Shown in pieces: positions 1 to 7,863 of a stretch of 64,000 bases of DNA. The stretch lies in NCBI GenBank assembly GCA_040183005.1, contig JAMPIW010000007.1, forward strand, positions 1,246,188 through 1,310,187, in the 5' to 3' direction. The notes below the pieces were generated by a model that had not been told where the DNA came from, ran no database searches, and saw nothing but the letters and a program-made list of their open reading frames with translations. This stretch comes from Gammaproteobacteria bacterium (GTDB taxonomy: Bacteria; Pseudomonadota; Gammaproteobacteria; Ga0077554; Ga007554). The position numbers and the translations under genes were made by a program. How positions within the stretch are numbered: position 1 is the stretch's first letter; every line of letters begins with the position of its first letter.

Positions 1-998
1 GACCAGAAGCTGAAGGCGGCTTCATCAAGCGGCTATGGGCAAGCTTGTTTGGCGGTGGCCTACCGGCAGCAACCAAAACCGAGGTTGAGACCAAGGCTAC
101 GACAAGCATCGACGAATCAGATTCCAGGAGAAAGGCTCCGCCTCACAAGGCGCGGTCCGCACCTTCTCAGCAAGCCAAACCGCGCCGCGACGAATCGCAG
201 CGCAAGAGGCCGCCGCGCGGCACAGAGGAACGCAAGAAAACGGTGCCTTCCGAGTTGCCTGCAAAGGCAGAAACAGCCCCGCAAGCGGCCCTTCCTGCCC
301 AAAGAACGCCATCAAGGGCGCTGCCACAGCCCACTTTTGAAGAACCCATTATCGAAGCCGCTGCGGGTGATACCACAACGGAAGCCGGGCAGGCCGTTTC
401 AGGTGAAGCAGAGCTTACGGCAAGAACCGCCGGCCAGCGTCCCGGTGGCCGGCGTGGACGCCGTGGTGGACGCCGCCGCCGTAGAGAACCAAGGGCTCCT
501 GGAGAAGCCGGCACGGAGTTTGCCGGAGACACCGAGGACGCAGGCGGAGAAGAAATGCGGCAGAATGAGAATAATGTTCTCGCCGCCACACCCCGCACGG
601 AACCCAGGATTGAAGCCAGCCACGCATCAACTGAAACTGGCGAATCGCCCCAAGTCGAGAAGAAAACGTCTGCGCCTTATTACCCACCGCGCAGAAATGC
701 CTATCGCCCAGGGAATATTGATCAGCCATCGCCGGACTCCGGCAACGTGGCTGTAGCGGCTGAAAACACAGGTGACGCACCTTCCTTGCCGCCACCCATT
801 AAAGCGACACCGCCTGCCCCTGTCGCAATCCAGGAAAACCGGGGCCAAGAAGAGGCCCGCGCGCCCAGGCAAATGACGTTTATGAGCGAAGCACCGTCTA
901 CCGACGCGACCCCGTCCAATGTCATCCCGGTAGCGCCCAAAGCCACCGTCGAAACTCCTGCCGTCAATCCAAAAACGGATTCGACAGGAAGCGAATAA
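1..998 (+). CDS. rne: C-terminal part of a large protein, probably ribonuclease E (Arg/Pro/Glu-rich scaffold region); the frame is open from position 3, so the 5' end lies outside the window
   Basis: Open frame continues upstream of the listed TTG start at 45. Composition (RRGRRGGRRRRREPR, low complexity, R/E/P/A-rich) is typical of the RNase E C-terminal scaffold. A strong intrinsic terminator follows. Confidence 0.45.
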   Translation, partial: PEAEGGFIKRLWASLFGGGLPAATKTEVETKATTSIDESDSRRKAPPHKARSAPSQQAKPRRDESQRKRPPRGTEERKKTVPSELPAKAETAPQAALPAQRTPSRALPQPTFEEPIIEAAAGDTTTEAGQAVSGEAELTARTAGQRPGGRRGRRGGRRRRREPRAPGEAGTEFAGDTEDAGGEEMRQNENNVLAATPRTEPRIEASHASTETGESPQVEKKTSAPYYPPRRNAYRPGNIDQPSPDSGNVAVAAENTGDAPSLPPPIKATPPAPVAIQENRGQEEARAPRQMTFMSEAPSTDATPSNVIPVAPKATVETPAVNPKTDSTGSE

Positions 999-2489: not shown

Positions 2490-2534
2490 ACCCTATTGGT
2501 TTGCCTGCGCTGTTTAAAACCGTGCTCAAGCTCG

Positions 2535-2570
2535 TAGGATGCGGTTCCCGTTGGTCACCGCATCCTACCA
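2535..2570. terminator. Perfect 12-bp stem hairpin between the convergent OMT and hypothetical genes (possible bidirectional terminator; no U-tract)
   Basis: gtaggatgcggt - 11-nt loop - accgcatcctac. Confidence 0.35.
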
Positions 2571-2589
2571 AGCTAACCCAGGGTACGCG

Positions 2590-3333
2590 CTAATGTACCG
2601 GGGAGGAAATCTGGCCACGAATTAAATCAGCAATGGCAATGTCACTGGCAAACTCTACAGTTTTGTCGGTATAGTAGTTTGCCCGCGTGTACTGTTTTAC
2701 ACCAATTGCACGCACATCTTCGACTAAAGCTAAAACGTAAGCTGATTCTTTGCGGCGCGCACAATCAAGAAAAATAATCTCGGCCTCCATTAACCGTTGC
2801 GCAGATGTTGCAGCAACAATCAATACTGGTCGGGGGACCACCAAGTAAGCATCCACAAAAATGGATTTGCTTTCGTCAGCAGCCACATCGCGGCGCATGA
2901 TGATATTGGCGGATTTTGCAACTTGTTCAACGATATCCATAATACGCTCACGAAAACCTGAAGTTTGGCGTGTTTGGCGCAAACAGGACAGTGCAACAAG
3001 CTGAGAGGCTGCTTCGGCAACTGCAAAAGCTCGCTCGGCGATTGTTATATTATCCGCTAGTGAATAGAGCGTCTCACCATCTTGGTCGCAACATACCCCC
3101 AGCAATGATTGCAAATCTGCAATACGTGCTTGCACCCGTTCGGACTCGGGATCAACGCCACTTGCAGCAAGACGAAACAAAGCTTCACCATTATCGTCCA
3201 ACTGCCAGCCTTGTGATAGGCGGCGGGCAAAAATTACGATGTTATCGCCATCATCAAAATGAAACGGGGTGATTAACTGCCCGCCCTCTGTTGTTTCGCG
3301 CCATACCAGCGATTTGCAAAAATCTGGCTTCAT
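2590..3333 (-). CDS. Hypothetical protein (distal gene of a two-gene cassette). The longest ORF extends to 3378, but the ATG at 3333-3331 overlaps the upstream stop as ATGA.
   Basis: 262-aa ORF (247 aa from the coupled start). No recognisable catalytic motif. ATGA stop/start overlap with the upstream 162-aa gene. Confidence 0.5.
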   Translation of the reverse strand: MKPDFCKSLVWRETTEGGQLITPFHFDDGDNIVIFARRLSQGWQLDDNGEALFRLAASGVDPESERVQARIADLQSLLGVCCDQDGETLYSLADNITIAERAFAVAEAASQLVALSCLRQTRQTSGFRERIMDIVEQVAKSANIIMRRDVAADESKSIFVDAYLVVPRPVLIVAATSAQRLMEAEIIFLDCARRKESAYVLALVEDVRAIGVKQYTRANYYTDKTVEFASDIAIADLIRGQISSPVH

Positions 3334-3818
3334 GACAGCAACTCGCCTTCGCCCAGTGTAATACCACAACAGCGACAAAAAATACTTACAAGCTGAAGAC
3401 GGTCTGTCGCGTTGGCTGGGTTTAGACCTTGCGGCGTGTCGAGAGCAAGCTCTGGGGCGCCGGGCAAAAGGCGGTCTAAGTAATCTCGGTCAGTTTGACA
3501 GTTAAGCATGATACATGATACGTATCCCTTTGTGGCTGGGATGATAATGCAAAATCGCGAGCGGGAGCAGCCCCCACTAGGCAGCCCGTCTTGAAACAAG
3601 TGCGCAAAAAACGCACGGCGCTCCAGAGTGTCACCATCACGCACCAGAAATATAACCAACAAGTTATCGGCAACTTGCGCCGGCCCAGCAACAAGTAAAC
3701 GCTTACCGCCCATTTTATCCAGTGGCCGAGGTAACCCGCCACGCTTAAGTGGACGGAATTGAATCGCGGTTAGTCGCTTGGCTTGATGTTTAAGCGAGCC
3801 CAGTTCCTGTTTACGCAT
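3330..3818 (-). CDS. Hypothetical protein (proximal gene of the two-gene cassette), Cys-containing C-terminus (CRCCG)
   Basis: 162-aa ORF translationally coupled to the downstream gene. An imperfect palindrome ccaggatatttctaatatccgg lies 52-74 bp upstream. Confidence 0.5.
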   Translation of the reverse strand: MRKQELGSLKHQAKRLTAIQFRPLKRGGLPRPLDKMGGKRLLVAGPAQVADNLLVIFLVRDGDTLERRAFFAHLFQDGLPSGGCSRSRFCIIIPATKGYVSCIMLNCQTDRDYLDRLLPGAPELALDTPQGLNPANATDRLQLVSIFCRCCGITLGEGELLS

Positions 3819-4000
3819 GGTTTGCTCTGTAAATTTATTGAAATTTAGTGGGGCAGTATACTACTTAACCAGGATATTTCTAATATCCGGGCGGCGATTG
3901 TGGCGCCAGGTTAAAACAAGTAACCCGGATGAAGCGATAGCGTAATCCGAGGGCTCTCCGTCGCACCCCGAATTGAGTGTTACTCGATCCTGGCCACTTA

Positions 4001-4008
4001 CTATTTTT
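4001..4008. repeat. 8-bp target-site duplication CTATTTTT flanking the ISL3 element (second copy at 5387-5394)
   Basis: Identical CTATTTTT sits immediately outside both IR ends. ISL3 elements are known to generate 8-bp AT-rich duplications. Confidence 0.7.
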
Positions 4009-5386
4009 GGCTCTTCGCGTGATCGTGTGGGTAAATTTCATGTTTTTTAGAGCCTCGGGAGCATAGACGTGAGTATTTTTAGTCGCAGATATTCTTCATC
4101 GCGCAGACCATATGCACGGCGTTGGATGACGCGTATCTTATTGTTGAGCCCCTCAACAAAGCCGAGTGAAACTTTATTCTCTGGCTTGCAATAGGCTGCG
4201 ATCCCATCCCAATGGCGCTCAATCATCTCGGCAAATTTCTCGTAAGGTTTCAGGCGCTGCCACTTCAGGCTGGTTTTCCAATTCTCGAAGAAACGCCGCG
4301 CCCATGCTTCGCTCCTGTAATCCCACAACTGGCCAAACGACTCTTTCAGCAGGTACGCCGTGTTCAGCCGTTTGTTCGCTGCCAGCAAAGCCTTCAAAGA
4401 ACGTCTGCCGTCCAGTGTCATATTTTCGTGATTGGAAAGCAGTACGTATTTCTGCCCCTTAATGTAGCGCCTATCCTTGCCCTGAAGACGTGCATATTCC
4501 ATCTTTCTGACTTTATCCAGAGCATCGCCGAGATGGCTCATGATGTGGAATTTGTCGAACAGGATGGCCGCCTGCGGGGCGCGTTCGTTGGTTACGTTAC
4601 GAAAGGGCTTCCACATATCCATCACTGCAAGACAAATGCCTTTGGATTTCTTCTCTCCCAGCCAGTCATAGAACTGTCGCATGCTGTCCTCCGAACGGTC
4701 GGCACCGCCAAACCAGATGGGACGACCACGGATCAAGTCGCTGACTACAATGCGATAGGTATGTCCTTTGCGAATCGATATTTCGTCGATGCCAATGGCC
4801 TTGGGTGCTGGCGTTCCGGCGCGTTCCAGTTGCGCGGTCATGTATTGCTTGTCCAGTTCCTTGACGGTGTGCCAGTCCAGAAGCAATTCGCGGGCAATGT
4901 CCGACACCGTGCTGGCGCGACACCGTCTGCCTACATACCAAGAAAATCGCTTTGTATAGAGTGGGTTGTCGGCGAGAAAGTCGAGTCGTTCGCGTTTCAC
5001 TTTCCCGCAGTGCCGACAAAGCACCCGTCGAATTTCGATTTCCAGATAGATACGTGTGTCGCCACAGGAGAGGTCGCGAACTCGTCGAAGCCTCTTGTCG
5101 TACCAACCAGAGCGCGTTCTGCCGCAACTGTTGCAGGCCGTTTTTTTGAGCGCCGAACGAGCGTGATGATCCGTGCTTTGGAGTCGCCAAAGATGCCGCG
5201 TATCTTTTCCAGCGGGCGAAAACAGGGGAATCGGTATGCGTCGAGAATGCGTTTGGGTTTGCGTGAAATAGCCATTGAAAAAACCTCCCATTTTCTGCAA
5301 CAGGTGCAGGATGCATTTTGCCTGATGCCACAAGGCTTGCGGAGGTTTTCATGTTAAATTTCACCCACTCGATTTCACGAAGACCC
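4009..5386 (-). mobile_element. Complete ISL3-family insertion sequence (1378 bp) with imperfect ~30-bp terminal inverted repeats starting GGCTCTTCG / GGGTCTTCG
   Basis: The IR at 4009 (ggctcttcgcgtgatcgtgtgggtaaatttcatg) matches the reverse complement of 5353-5386 (gggtcttcgtgaaatcgagtgggtgaaatttaacatg) at about 24/30 positions. It encloses a single ISL3-type transposase gene. Confidence 0.85.
4047..5333 (-). CDS. ISL3-family transposase (zinc-finger N-terminal region plus DDE domain)
   Basis: 428 aa. CxxC...CxxC zinc-finger block (CNSCGRT...CRHCGKV) followed by an ISL3-type catalytic region. The true start may be an internal Met (for example MGGFFNG). Confidence 0.85.
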   Translation of the reverse strand: MWHQAKCILHLLQKMGGFFNGYFTQTQTHSRRIPIPLFSPAGKDTRHLWRLQSTDHHARSALKKTACNSCGRTRSGWYDKRLRRVRDLSCGDTRIYLEIEIRRVLCRHCGKVKRERLDFLADNPLYTKRFSWYVGRRCRASTVSDIARELLLDWHTVKELDKQYMTAQLERAGTPAPKAIGIDEISIRKGHTYRIVVSDLIRGRPIWFGGADRSEDSMRQFYDWLGEKKSKGICLAVMDMWKPFRNVTNERAPQAAILFDKFHIMSHLGDALDKVRKMEYARLQGKDRRYIKGQKYVLLSNHENMTLDGRRSLKALLAANKRLNTAYLLKESFGQLWDYRSEAWARRFFENWKTSLKWQRLKPYEKFAEMIERHWDGIAAYCKPENKVSLGFVEGLNNKIRVIQRRAYGLRDEEYLRLKILTSMLPRL

Positions 5387-5578
5387 CTATTTTTTTTCAT
5401 ATCACACCCCAGTTATCACACGTCCATGGGGTCTACTATCGAGCTTGCAGGCGAGCATTACCACGTTACCTCGCGGGTGTGATCGTCTCATGAACCGGGA
5501 CACACTCTGAGTACTGCCCTGTCCAATTGCCGTATTTAGGATGATGCAATACGTTCTACTTTTACCTGCGAACTCCTC

Positions 5579-7066
5579 TCATCCGTTGGCAATAGTCTCT
5601 GCCCGTATCGCAAGCCCCTTTGCCACACTGCCAAAACTATCGCCATAGACGATGGGGACGCCTGGAAATTGTTCACGGACGATCTGATTCATCAGGGGAA
5701 TTTTCGACGTTCCACCGGTCATGAATATCTCATCCGGCGGTGCTTTAGCATGACTACAAGCGGCCTGCATCAGGTGGATAATTTTTCCGATATAGTGATG
5801 TATGGTGTGCTCCAATTCCGCCCGACTCACAGATATGTCTATCGGATTTTCAAAGTAATCGAGCGGCACAATCGTATCATCCTTATCGGAAAGCCCGATT
5901 TTTCCTAGCTCTGCACTGCGATTGACCCGCATGGATAAATGACCTTCCCTGAGTTCGATGAGCCGCCGAATAGGCACTTGATCAACCGCATCGCGCAAAT
6001 AGTCGTTGAGCTCCTTCGCCATGGCCCTGCCATAAAATCGGGTCTGGGCTGGGATATCGGTAACAGACAGCGCATCCATGATGCCGCGCTTGGGTACCGG
6101 CAATCCCGATTTGAAATGCGTGCCAATACCCAATGCCGGACCAAAGAATGCCTTGGCAAACGACACATCCAGATCGGTACCGCCCAGCCGCTCCCCAGTG
6201 GTACTGAGAATGTCGGCCTCTCGATCCGCCTTCATTTTTCTGTCTGGCCCCAGCTTCATCAGGGTGCAATCGGTAGTGCCGCCGCCCGCATCCAACACCA
6301 GAACGGTCTTATCGGTAGTGAGCTGATGCTCGTAAGCCACTGCCGCCGCAATCGGTTCATACTCGAAAATAAAATCATTGATCCCTGCCTCAGCGGCTGC
6401 GCGACGCATGATGTCCAGCGCGCCCGGTTCAAAGGCGCGCGCGCCGTGGTATTTGACAGGCCTGCCCAGCACGATTAGCTCGGCTTCCGCCCCCAGCGCC
6501 CGTTCTGCACTCAACTTGAGGTGGCGCAAAAACACCGCTGTGATCGCTACAAATAATTCAACTTTGTCGGGGTGAAGTTCCACGGCAAGAAAGTTTTTAG
6601 GCGATTTAATCAAATACCCAATACTTGGGTCATCCATATGCATACGTAGCGCTTCAGTACCCAGCAGTACCTCAGACGTCCGAATCAGTGATGCGCTCAA
6701 GCTCTGTGGTTTACCTCCTTGTTCGGCGTGCAGCAAGGCCTCTCTGCGCACAGCATTACGCGCCATCATTTGGATGCCGGCTTCGTCCAGCGCCTCCAGG
6801 CCAGTTGGCTCTATCGAAATACCCGATAGGTGTCCTTCAGTCTGTCGCCTTTGCCTGAGCGCTGCCTGTTCTTCTCGCAGCGATGCGGCAATGATTTCAA
6901 TGTCGCTATTGGACAGGGTAAGGTGCCGAATCGGTGAACGTGCCACCCACAATACTGAAGGAAGAAAAGCGCTCCCGGACTCGAGCTGAACCAGACAGGG
7001 TTCGCCATCATGTACAAACGATGCGGCACAATTTGAGGTGCCATAGTCGATAGCGATTGTTTTCAT
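5579..7066 (-). CDS. Hsp70-family ATPase, YegD-like (actin-like ATPase fold, no canonical substrate-binding/lid domain)
   Basis: 495 aa. Hsp70 motifs IAIDYGTSN, LVLDAGGGTTD, IFMTGGTS. Confidence 0.75.
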   Translation of the reverse strand: MKTIAIDYGTSNCAASFVHDGEPCLVQLESGSAFLPSVLWVARSPIRHLTLSNSDIEIIAASLREEQAALRQRRQTEGHLSGISIEPTGLEALDEAGIQMMARNAVRREALLHAEQGGKPQSLSASLIRTSEVLLGTEALRMHMDDPSIGYLIKSPKNFLAVELHPDKVELFVAITAVFLRHLKLSAERALGAEAELIVLGRPVKYHGARAFEPGALDIMRRAAAEAGINDFIFEYEPIAAAVAYEHQLTTDKTVLVLDAGGGTTDCTLMKLGPDRKMKADREADILSTTGERLGGTDLDVSFAKAFFGPALGIGTHFKSGLPVPKRGIMDALSVTDIPAQTRFYGRAMAKELNDYLRDAVDQVPIRRLIELREGHLSMRVNRSAELGKIGLSDKDDTIVPLDYFENPIDISVSRAELEHTIHHYIGKIIHLMQAACSHAKAPPDEIFMTGGTSKIPLMNQIVREQFPGVPIVYGDSFGSVAKGLAIRAETIANG

Positions 7067-7632: not shown

Positions 7633-7678
7633 TTTCTACTCCGGAATACGGTGGTTTAACTTTAAAAAACTATATGAA

Positions 7679-7803
7679 CCGCAGAGCGCGCGGAGAGCGC
7701 AAAGAAATTCATATGGTTAGCGTAAGGCGCACTTTCACCCAGCGGGTGACTCGACACAACTTGCCAAGGTCTTTTTTCTCTGCGTTCTCCGTGCGCTCTG
7801 CGG
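7679..7803. repeat. Family-1 intergenic inverted-repeat element, copy A (~125 bp; arms built from three GCAGAG-type units followed by an A-run)
   Basis: Left arm ccgcagagcgcgcggagagcgcaaagaaa. The reverse complement of the right arm is ccgcagagcgcacggagaacgcagagaaaaa. The central part is homologous (in inverted orientation) to the copy at 58654-58783, including the shared GTTAGCGTAA...CAAGGTC core. Confidence 0.6.
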
Positions 7804-7863
7804 TGAATCGCCGTTTTTAAGCCTTACCTTGCTTTTCAATCTGACTACTTCTAGCATAGGATC

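What the first reader, a model, noticed from the sequence alone, without database searches (positions are those of the whole stretch)
2590..3892. ATGA-coupled two-gene cassette of unknown function next to an Hsp70-like ATPase and separated from it by a fresh IS insertion
The two genes at 3818-3330 (162 aa) and 3333-2590 (247 aa) overlap by ATGA, indicating translational coupling. Neither protein shows recognisable catalytic motifs. They lie in a clearly accessory patch (CWC protein, OMT, IS, YegD-like Hsp70). An imperfect palindrome (ccaggatatttctaatatccgg, 3870-3892) sits 50-75 bp upstream, where an operator would be expected. The ISL3 element landed in the 380-bp spacer between this cassette and the Hsp70-like gene. 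The size pair and tight coupling are reminiscent of two-component toxin-antitoxin or abortive-infection modules, but nothing in the sequence proves that.
Basis: inference. Interest (0 to 1): 0.55.

Follow-up and report, generated by a model that had tools for sequence, protein, structure and literature searches.

The report
Mobile two-gene conflict cassette, one gene broken
The two overlapping genes are a rare, always-paired mobile cassette found in prophages and next to restriction systems, so it is probably a phage-defence or toxin-antitoxin-like module, and in this genome the first gene has lost its conserved His/Cys motif to a pair of compensating frameshifts.

Summary
The genes at 3818-3330 (162 aa) and 3333-2590 (247 aa) overlap by ATGA. 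An ISL3 element (4009-5386) with a perfect 8-bp target duplication sits 190 bp upstream. A 10-nt-arm palindrome (3869-3891) overlaps the -35 of the predicted promoter.

In every related locus recovered where the upstream DNA is present (about 30, gene 2 at 32-100% identity), gene 1 lies directly upstream of gene 2, usually with the same 4-nt overlap. Only the 1.3-kb cassette is shared between genomes. The Hsp70/YegD-like neighbour occurs nowhere else, so that link is coincidental.

Other copies lie beside type IIG restriction + HKD-helicase genes and MAD7/type I restriction genes. They also lie in Mu-like phage accessory slots and directly after CI-like repressors.

Gene 2 is a DUF1828 protein that weakly matches the untested PADLOC candidate PDC-M24B. 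Its C-terminal half is predicted to have a restriction-endonuclease-like fold. Gene 1 belongs to a rare orphan family (60 representatives in 1.84 billion proteins) with a conserved HPSHK-x2-H-x4-C motif and no known fold.

In this window a 1-nt deletion plus a 7-nt tandem duplication put that motif out of frame. Even after repair, invariant His100 reads Arg.

Verdict: a new variant of a candidate defence/TA-like module. The function is untested, and this copy is probably crippled.

The parts
3330..3818 (-). Gene 1 (A component), 162 aa. It belongs to a rare orphan family of about 160-aa proteins. This allele carries a compensated double frameshift.
   Evidence: ORF. There are 18 homologues at 40-100% identity and 60 representatives in 1.84e9 proteins. 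No Pfam, NCBIfam, PADLOC or PHROG hit. It scores 148 bits against the family HMM, against about 200 for close intact relatives.
3508..3575 (-). Out-of-frame stretch inside gene 1. It is bounded by a 1-nt deletion in a G-run (3571-3575) and a 7-nt tandem duplication, GTATCAT GTATCAT (3508-3521). The protein reads GCSRSRFCIIIPATKGYVSCIM where the family has GLLPLAILHYHPSHKGIHIV.
   Evidence: Frame translations and in-silico repair. DNA alignment to L006 shows one 1-nt gap and one 7-nt insertion. The same sequence is present in an independent Logan assembly, L012. After repair, invariant H100 still reads R.
2590..3333 (-). Gene 2 (B component), 247 aa, intact. It is a DUF1828-family protein.
   Evidence: PF08861 E=5.9e-10, and 33 of 33 family members hit it. 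PADLOC PDC-M24B E=7.4e-10. phrog_1960 and phrog_5059. dN/dS is 0.08-0.10.
3016..3270 (-). N-terminal DUF1828 domain of gene 2 (residues 22-106), predicted as a beta-sheet plus helices. It has one weak fold match, to the type III secretion chaperone SpcU.
   Evidence: Pfam coordinates. AF2 model with pLDDT 89.9. Foldseek hit 3tu3_A, E=2e-2, prob 0.93.
2593..2961 (-). C-terminal domain of gene 2 (residues about 125-247) with a predicted restriction-endonuclease-like alpha/beta fold. Invariant residues are D161, R180, E183, R217, T222-D223-K224, within the motif TRANYYTDKTVEF.
   Evidence: Foldseek against PDB: Can2 (E=6.5e-3, prob 0.99), PspGI, SfsA, VC1899, BsoBI, MspJI, McrC, NucS, Mus81. Conservation. 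No DUF1829 hit.
3855..3882 (-). Predicted sigma-70-type promoter of the cassette (TAGAAA, 16-nt spacer, TATACT).
   Evidence: The -10 is conserved in L016.
3869..3891 (.). Imperfect palindrome (10-nt arms, 1 mismatch, 3-nt spacer) overlapping the -35.
   Evidence: Not conserved in relatives.
2534..2568 (.). Perfect 11-bp stem with a 13-nt loop, between the convergent stops of gene 2 and the O-methyltransferase gene. It is a likely transcript end, although no T-run follows it.
   Evidence: Read directly from the sequence. The terminator scan, which requires a T-run, did not call it.
4009..5386 (-). ISL3-family insertion sequence (1378 bp). It is not part of the cassette. It is inserted 190 bp upstream of gene 1 and leaves the predicted promoter intact.
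   Evidence: Transposase match NF033550, E=4.9e-91. Inverted repeats and the 8-bp duplication CTATTTTT at 4001-4008 and 5387-5394.

Best explanation
This is a small (about 1.3 kb) horizontally mobile two-gene 'conflict' cassette. It is most likely a phage-defence or toxin-antitoxin-like module, carried by prophages and genomic islands.

Shown here:
- The two genes are always together, in the same order and usually overlapping by 4 nt.
- The cassette relocates as a unit.
- Both genes are under strong purifying selection.
- The contexts are prophages and defence islands.
- The window's gene 1 carries a compensated frameshift across its conserved motif.

Inferred mechanism:
- The pair is transcribed from its own promoter, or in some prophages together with the CI-type repressor. 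The proteins are made at a coupled ratio and act as a complex.
- Gene 1 (A), with its H-P-S-H-K-x2-H-x4-C motif (a metal site or a Cys/His active site), is the active or dangerous component.
- Gene 2 (B) binds and controls A through its chaperone-like DUF1828 domain. Its nuclease-fold C-terminal domain contributes DNA binding or cleavage.

In this genome A has been disabled while the reading frame, and so the translational coupling to B, has been restored. The local copy is therefore probably non-functional as a system.
For: Pairing and coupling:
- Gene 1 homologues lie directly upstream of gene 2 homologues in every locus where the upstream DNA is present (HMM scan of L001-L033).
- The 4-nt overlap recurs in most loci.

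Mobility:
- DNA homology between the window and its relatives is confined to 2575-3879.

Contexts:
- HKD/Snf2 helicase + type IIG restriction-methylase in L001, L007 and L014.
- MAD7 + type I restriction genes in L005.
- A prophage in L002/L003.
- A Mu-like head module between the G/F genes and the protease I gene in L011, L026 and L024/L030/L031.
- Immediately downstream of HTH+S24 CI-like repressors in L021 and L032, with a GmrSD-type nuclease next door in L021.
- Four IMG/VR viral contigs carry it.

Proteins:
- Gene 2 hits PADLOC PDC-M24B. PDC-M24 is an A>>B cassette found embedded in BREX/DISARM/type I RM systems, and its B family also pairs with another A family (10.1101/2024.01.29.577857).
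- Gene 2 has a nuclease-like fold.
- The gene 1 motif is conserved across 29 diverse members.

Which component is lost:
- A is defective while B is intact twice independently: in the window and in Verticiella L027 (frameshift plus H100R).
- One lineage keeps A plus only the DUF1828 N-domain of B (L002-4/L033).
- No locus was seen with intact A lacking the B N-domain.

Selection:
- dN/dS is 0.07-0.10 for both genes.
Against: - No experiment exists for this family or for PDC-M24.
- About half of the genome-derived loci have ordinary housekeeping neighbours, so enrichment near defence genes was not quantified.
- Gene 1 has no detectable relative of known function and no PDB fold match. The assignment of A as effector rests only on patterns of gene decay and on the modular pairing of B-type proteins.
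- The nuclease-fold domain of B lacks an obvious (D/E)xK in its third strand, so its activity is uncertain. Alternatively, B could be the effector and A its regulator.
- No DNA-binding antitoxin-type domain (HTH/RHH) was found in either protein.
Confidence: 0.55

Rival explanations
1. B is the effector and A is its sensor or regulator. The nuclease-fold C-terminal domain of the DUF1828 protein cleaves nucleic acid on infection, in the manner of a sensor-domain + PD-(D/E)xK effector such as Can2/Card1. A activates or restrains it.
For: The best Foldseek matches of the gene 2 model are nucleases, including Can2 (prob 0.99) and PspGI. The C-terminal domain has invariant acidic and basic residues: D161, E183, D223, K224. 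The two-domain sensor + nuclease layout is common in defence proteins (my own knowledge).
Against: The third strand reads V-A-A-T with no (D/E)xK. A lineage persists with the nuclease-like domain deleted but A and the N-domain intact. If A were needed to restrain a toxic B, the A-defective loci (window, L027) with intact B should be counter-selected.
Confidence: 0.2
2. It is a plain addiction-type toxin-antitoxin pair that stabilises the mobile elements carrying it and has no role against phages.
For: A small, coupled two-gene unit that moves on its own and is scattered among unrelated contexts, including housekeeping neighbourhoods. Decay of one partner is seen.
Against: No known toxin or antitoxin domain is present and no HTH/RHH autoregulator was found. 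None were found on 72,556 plasmids. Placement in the CI-repressor operon and in restriction islands fits defence better.
Confidence: 0.13
3. It is a phage counter-defence (anti-restriction or anti-CRISPR-like) module rather than a defence.
For: In L011 and L026 it occupies the slot between the Mu G-like gene and the protease I gene. From my own knowledge, this is where Mu-like Pseudomonas phages carry anti-CRISPR operons. One BFVD phage protein shares the gene 1 fold (A0A8S5NGZ0, TM 0.56).
Against: Many copies are chromosomal and co-oriented directly behind restriction genes. Others sit in lysogeny (CI) operons. The proteins are larger than typical Acr proteins and there is no Aca-type HTH. 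There was no hit in 50,697 GenBank phage genomes.
Confidence: 0.08
4. It is an ordinary housekeeping or metabolic gene pair functionally linked to the neighbouring Hsp70-like ATPase or O-methyltransferase.
For: Physical adjacency in this window only.
Against: No Hsp70 homologue lies near any other copy and the flanks are never shared. The family is extremely rare and patchy. No metabolic domain was found.
Confidence: 0.02

Closest known systems
PADLOC phage-defence candidate PDC-M24 (cassette FAM_00129>>FAM_00065; Payne et al., bioRxiv 10.1101/2024.01.29.577857). It is untested.
   Same: Both are two-gene A>>B cassettes. The B protein is about 250 aa with an N-terminal DUF1828-type region; gene 2 hits both PDC-M24B models (E=7.4e-10 and 1.1e-8). 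PDC-M24 was found embedded in or next to restriction/BREX/DISARM-type systems, as several copies of this cassette are.
   Different: The A protein is unrelated: none of 16 intact gene 1 family members hits any PADLOC model at E<=10. The B match covers only residues about 20-162 of gene 2, so the C-terminal domain is not shown to be shared.
Pfam DUF1828 (PF08861) proteins, often with a DUF1829 C-terminal domain; phrog_1960 and phrog_5059
   Same: The N-terminal domain matches in 33 of 33 family members. The protein length is similar to the PHROG families of unknown function.
   Different: The C-terminal half does not match DUF1829. DUF1829 itself has only been implicated in defence in a different architecture, DS-6B/HipAD, where it is combined with DUF3037 (PMC13092281).
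Sensor + PD-(D/E)xK effector proteins (Can2/Card1) and type II/IV restriction endonucleases (PspGI, BsoBI, MspJI, McrC)
   Same: The predicted fold of the gene 2 C-terminal domain and the two-domain layout.
   Different: The E-values are marginal (>=6.5e-3) and the TM-scores are 0.3. There is no CARF domain and no canonical (D/E)xK in strand 3. No sequence-level PDB relative was found.
Prophage lysogeny-operon exclusion modules such as lambda cI-rexA-rexB (my own knowledge)
   Same: In L021 and L032 the pair lies directly downstream of, and co-oriented with, a CI-like HTH+S24 repressor.
   Different: There is no sequence or fold relationship to RexA/RexB, and no membrane protein is involved.
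Reverse-order type II toxin-antitoxin modules (toxin gene first, e.g. higBA, hicAB, mqsRA; my own knowledge)
   Same: Small size, translational coupling, independent mobility, and decay patterns in which the upstream gene is lost while the downstream one persists.
   Different: No known toxin or antitoxin fold and no DNA-binding antitoxin domain. Toxicity has not been tested.

Membership tests
PADLOC PDC-M24 | The B protein matches the PDC-M24B HMM | tested here: met
   PDLC04540 E=7.4e-10 and PDLC04539 E=1.1e-8. The match covers only residues about 20-162 of 247.
PADLOC PDC-M24 | The A protein matches the PDC-M24A HMM | tested here: not met
   No PADLOC hit for the window's gene 1 or for 16 intact family members at E<=10.
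PADLOC PDC-M24 | The cassette is embedded in or adjacent to BREX/DISARM/type I RM systems | tested here: inconclusive
   Adjacent to HKD-helicase + type IIG RM genes in L001/L007/L014 and to MAD7 + type I RM genes in L005. Many other copies are in prophages or housekeeping contexts. The copy in this window is not.
Pfam DUF1828 (PF08861) | Score above the Pfam gathering threshold | tested here: met
   39.7 bits against a cutoff of 22. 33 of 33 homologues match.
Pfam DUF1829 (PF08862) | The C-terminal domain matches the HMM | tested here: not met
   No hit at E<=1 in any of 33 members.
PD-(D/E)xK nuclease superfamily | alpha-beta-beta-beta-alpha-beta core fold | tested here: inconclusive
   Many different nuclease families top the Foldseek list (prob up to 0.99), but E>=6.5e-3 and TM is about 0.3. 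The model itself is confident (pLDDT 89.9).
PD-(D/E)xK nuclease superfamily | Catalytic D in strand 2 and (D/E)xK in strand 3 | tested here: inconclusive
   Invariant D161 lies in predicted strand 159-165, but strand 170-175 reads V-A-A-T with no ExK. Invariant E183 and R180 lie in the following helix. The mapping is from secondary structure only; no coordinates were inspected.
Type II toxin-antitoxin system | Two small adjacent co-transcribed genes | tested here: met
   ATGA overlap, conserved in most loci.
Type II toxin-antitoxin system | An antitoxin with a DNA-binding domain (HTH/RHH/AbrB) and a toxin of a known superfamily | tested here: not met
   No such Pfam or NCBIfam domains in either protein or in their homologues.
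Type II toxin-antitoxin system | One product is toxic and is neutralised by the other | not testable with these tools
   This requires expression experiments.
E2/UBC-like fold (considered for gene 1 because of the HPS...C motif and weak Foldseek hits) | Profile similarity to E2 enzymes | tested here: not met
Foldseek probabilities were 0.04-0.07. No Prok-E2 Pfam hit.
ISL3 insertion sequence (the neighbouring element) | ISL3 transposase, terminal inverted repeats, 8-bp target duplication | tested here: met
   NF033550 E=4.9e-91. Inverted repeats and the CTATTTTT duplication.

The most novel reading that the evidence does not exclude
The gene 1 family is a previously undescribed effector enzyme with a new fold and a His3-Cys centre (H93, H96, H100, C105). 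It is held in check by the chaperone-like DUF1828 domain of a partner that also carries a degenerate nuclease fold. Together they form a new prophage- and island-borne anti-phage system. The DUF1828-type B protein would be a promiscuous controller that pairs with several unrelated A effectors (this family, and PDC-M24A/FAM_00129 and FAM_01408).
Probability: 0.3. Interest if true: 0.7.

Novelty: new variant of a known kind. Interest (0 to 1): 0.5.

Why it matters
If the pair is a working defence or TA-like system, it adds a new effector family with no Pfam, PADLOC, PHROG or PDB relative. It would also give a first functional handle on DUF1828 proteins, which are partnered with different upstream genes in candidate defence cassettes.

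The natural alleles found here give ready-made hypotheses about which part is dangerous and which part neutralises it. They are the compensated frameshift and H100R in this window, the frameshift plus H100R in Verticiella, and the B protein truncated to its N-domain in a phage lineage.

For this particular genome the practical message is more modest. The cassette is an accessory insertion unrelated to the Hsp70-like gene, and its first gene is probably inactive.

Tried and rejected
- Hsp70 association: tblastn of the YegD-like protein against all 33 related loci found nothing. Rejected.
- E2/UBC-like idea for gene 1, prompted by the HPS...C motif and several weak E2 Foldseek hits: hhalign probability 0.06%. 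Rejected.
- HIT-, HNH- and zincin-like readings of the His motif were considered from memory only. No Pfam hit supports any of them, so none is claimed.
- DUF1829 as the C-terminal domain of gene 2: no hit in 33 members.
- Sequence-profile searches of PDB for both families returned only chance-level hits.
- Foldseek of the gene 1 model against PDB: nothing. Against BFVD: one uncharacterised phage protein.
- GenBank phages and PLSDB plasmids: no homologue of either protein.
- Palindrome as a conserved operator: not conserved upstream of the closest relatives.
- Literature: DUF1828 appears only incidentally in two papers. PDC-M24 appears only as a cassette ID in the supplement of the guilt-by-embedding preprint.
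- P0112, a 984-aa hit with 14 matched stretches in the exhaustive search, is a spurious repeat translation.
- The neighbourhood summary of 113 flanking ORFs was heterogeneous, so no enrichment statistic is claimed.
Full report

Yes. The ORF table and the sequence show a 162-codon ORF at 3330-3818(-) and a 247-codon ORF at 2590-3333(-). The stop of the first and the start of the second share ATGA.

Upstream there is one sigma-70-like site (TAGAAA, 16 nt, TATACT; 3882->3855). A palindrome with 10-nt arms, one mismatch and a 3-nt spacer lies at 3869-3891, covering the -35. Palindromes of this quality occur 20 times in the window against about 14 in shuffled sequence. Finding one in this 190-bp spacer is therefore mildly unusual (about 0.05) but not compelling.

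The ISL3 element is real and recent-looking.
- Its transposase matches NF033550 at E=4.9e-91.
- It spans 4009-5386 and has matching terminal inverted repeats.
- It is flanked by an identical 8-bp duplication, CTATTTTT, at 4001-4008 and 5387-5394.

The IS leaves the predicted promoter intact. The gene beyond it is a YegD-type Hsp70-like ATPase (NF008673, E=5.4e-112).

**2. The pair is a conserved, mobile unit.**

Gene 1 has 18 homologues in the 5.8-billion-protein index, and gene 2 has 43.

I fetched contigs for several of these. I also fetched 17 genome loci and 4 IMG/VR loci found with the gene 2 alignment. I then scanned all stop-to-stop ORFs with HMMs of both families.
- Every locus that has gene 2 and enough upstream DNA has gene 1 immediately upstream on the same strand.
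- This includes loci where gene callers had missed it or fused it to upstream sequence (L009, L011).
- In most loci the two genes overlap by the same 4 nt.

blastn of the first 12 kb of the window against all loci finds homology only between 2575 and 3879. The flanks differ in every genome, so the 1.3-kb cassette travels on its own.

Both genes evolve under strong purifying selection, with dN/dS of 0.07-0.10.

**3. Where it lives.**

- In L001, L007 and L014 the cassette follows, on the same strand, an HKD/Snf2 helicase and a type IIG restriction-methylase.
- In L005 it lies next to MAD7, an N6-methylase, a specificity subunit and a DUF87 ATPase.
- In L002/L003/L033 it sits in a prophage or viral contig.
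- In L011 and L026 it is inserted between the Mu G-like morphogenesis gene and the Mu protease I gene. In L024/L030/L031 it follows the Mu portal and F genes. From my own knowledge, this is a known slot for accessory genes in Mu-like phages.
- In Marinobacter L021 and in IMG/VR L032 it lies directly behind a CI-like HTH+S24 repressor. In L021 a GmrSD-type nuclease gene is on the other side.
- Other copies have plain housekeeping neighbours.
- Neither protein has a homologue in 50,697 GenBank phage genomes or 72,556 plasmids.
- An exhaustive HMMER search finds only 60 gene 1 representatives among 1.84 billion proteins. The family is rare and mostly environmental, in beta- and gammaproteobacterial MAGs.

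**4. What the proteins are.**

*Gene 2.*
- It carries Pfam DUF1828 at residues 22-106, as do all 33 aligned relatives.
- It weakly matches both PADLOC PDC-M24B models (E=7.4e-10) and two PHROGs of unknown function.
- PDC-M24 is one of 145 untested candidates obtained by 'guilt-by-embedding' in BREX/DISARM/type I RM loci. Its definition is the cassette FAM_00129>>FAM_00065, and the B family also occurs behind another A family, FAM_01408 (10.1101/2024.01.29.577857).
- The AlphaFold2 model is confident (pLDDT 89.9).
- The Foldseek hits for its C-terminal half are almost all PD-(D/E)xK nucleases: Can2, PspGI, SfsA, VC1899, BsoBI, MspJI, McrC, NucS and Mus81. The scores are marginal (best E=6.5e-3, prob 0.99, TM about 0.3).
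- The N-terminal domain has one weak match, to the type III secretion chaperone SpcU.
- Invariant D161 sits in the second core strand, but the third strand has no (D/E)xK. Other invariant residues are R180, E183, R217 and T222-D223-K224. Catalytic competence therefore remains open.
- The C-terminal half is not DUF1829.

*Gene 1.*
- It has no hit in Pfam, NCBIfam, PADLOC or PHROGs. This holds for the window copy and for 16 intact relatives.
- It has no sequence-level PDB relative.
- The model of the intact relative P0002 (pLDDT 79.9, pTM 0.80) shows an N-terminal helix, a long conserved loop, a five-strand meander and a C-terminal helix.
- That model has no significant PDB match. In BFVD it matches one uncharacterised phage protein (TM 0.56).
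- Across 29 diverse members the invariant residues are H93, H100 and C105. P94, S95, H96, K97, R114, E121 and D131 are nearly invariant. The resulting motif is H-P-S-H-K-x2-H-x4-C.
- An E2-like reading suggested by this motif was tested and rejected (hhalign probability 0.06%).

**5. The copy in this window is damaged.**

In the family alignment the window reads GCSRSRFCIIIPATKGYVSCIM where all relatives read GLLPLAILHYHPSHKGIHIV. The conserved peptide is encoded in another frame of the window DNA.

Relative to the closest relative (L006, 90.6% DNA identity) there are two indels:
- a 1-nt deletion in a G-run (3571-3575);
- a 7-nt tandem duplication, GTATCAT GTATCAT (3508-3521).

Undoing both restores the motif. 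However, invariant His100 then reads Arg (CGT for CAT).

The same sequence is present in an independent Logan assembly of run SRR19360587, which breaks inside the IS (L012).

The NCBI record contributes gene 2 but not gene 1 to the protein collection (sources). This fits gene 1 being unannotated or flagged as a pseudogene there.

Outside the scrambled 20 codons, gene 1 still shows dN/dS=0.07 against L006. The underlying nucleotides of the scrambled stretch are nearly unchanged. The events are therefore recent.

Either frameshift alone would stop translation about 145 nt before gene 2. The compensated state restores read-through to the ATGA junction, which hints at selection for coupled expression of gene 2 or for the C-terminal part of gene 1. 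This last point is inference.

**6. Natural variants elsewhere.**

- Verticiella sediminum (L027) has gene 1 frameshifted just after the motif, and it also carries H100R. Its gene 2 is intact.
- A phage-borne lineage (L002-4/L033, in at least 7 contigs) keeps gene 1 and only the 123-aa DUF1828 N-domain of gene 2.
- L017 has C105G together with G98C.
- I saw no locus with an intact gene 1 lacking the DUF1828 domain.

**7. Most likely mechanism.**

*Shown:* an obligate, coupled, mobile pair under purifying selection, in prophage and defence-island contexts.

*Inferred:* the pair is a defence/TA-like module whose products act as a complex. I favour A (gene 1) as the active or dangerous component and B as its controller acting through the DUF1828 domain. 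The reasons are:
- B-type proteins pair with unrelated A families;
- A is the partner that is found disabled;
- A persists with only the N-domain of B.

The reverse assignment, with B as the nuclease effector, is a serious rival. An addiction-only TA pair and a phage counter-defence module are less likely rivals. A housekeeping role linked to Hsp70 is effectively excluded.

**8. Novelty and score.**

The cassette is not PDC-M24, because its A component fails the test. It is the same kind of object: a DUF1828-type B protein behind a small variable A protein in conflict loci. I therefore rate it as a new variant of a known, and itself untested, kind.

Interest is moderate (0.5). It is a clean, rare orphan family with a sharp motif and informative natural alleles. 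It is also one candidate among hundreds, with no functional data, and this genome's copy is probably dead.

Noticed in passing
window 7662-7707 and 7775-7820: A pair of 46-nt inverted repeats (78% complementary, 67 nt apart) lies in the intergenic region between the phosphotyrosine-phosphatase-like gene and the next ORF. It looks like a REP/MITE-like element.
   Followed up: no
L027 7295-7935 (Verticiella sediminum DSM 27279): The gene 1 homologue is split by a frameshift just after the conserved motif, and it also carries H100R, the same substitution as the repaired window allele. Gene 2 is intact.
   Followed up: partly
L002 8441-8812, L003, L004, L033: This is a phage-associated lineage in which gene 2 is only 123 aa (the DUF1828 domain alone) while gene 1 is intact. 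It is seen in at least 7 contigs.
   Followed up: partly
L017 7516-8004: The gene 1 homologue has Gly at the otherwise invariant Cys105 and Cys at the conserved Gly98 (HKCLHLLVNGE). This may be a relocated cysteine.
   Followed up: no
window 5579-7066 (-): The YegD-like Hsp70 ATPase aligns to the NF008673 profile only from residue 128 (profile position 81). This implies about 45 extra residues in its N-terminal part relative to E. coli-type YegD.
   Followed up: no
window 2534-2568: A perfect 11-bp stem-loop lies between the convergent ends of gene 2 and the O-methyltransferase gene. No T-run follows it, so the terminator scan did not report it.
   Followed up: no
window 45-998 (+): A long ORF encodes a low-complexity protein segment rich in Pro, Ala, Glu and Arg (RRGRRGGRRRRR...). 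It probably forms the C-terminal tail of a gene that starts before the window.
   Followed up: no
window 3330-3818 / NCBI record of the MAG: The exact gene 1 protein is on record only from a Logan assembly, whereas gene 2 is also on record from NCBI. This suggests the public annotation omits gene 1 or marks it as a pseudogene.
   Followed up: no
L009 6970-8004 (Thiocapsa rosea) and L011 1495-1974: Gene 1 homologues are mis-annotated in public gene calls. In L009 the gene is fused to about 185 upstream codons, and in L011 it is not called at all.
   Followed up: yes
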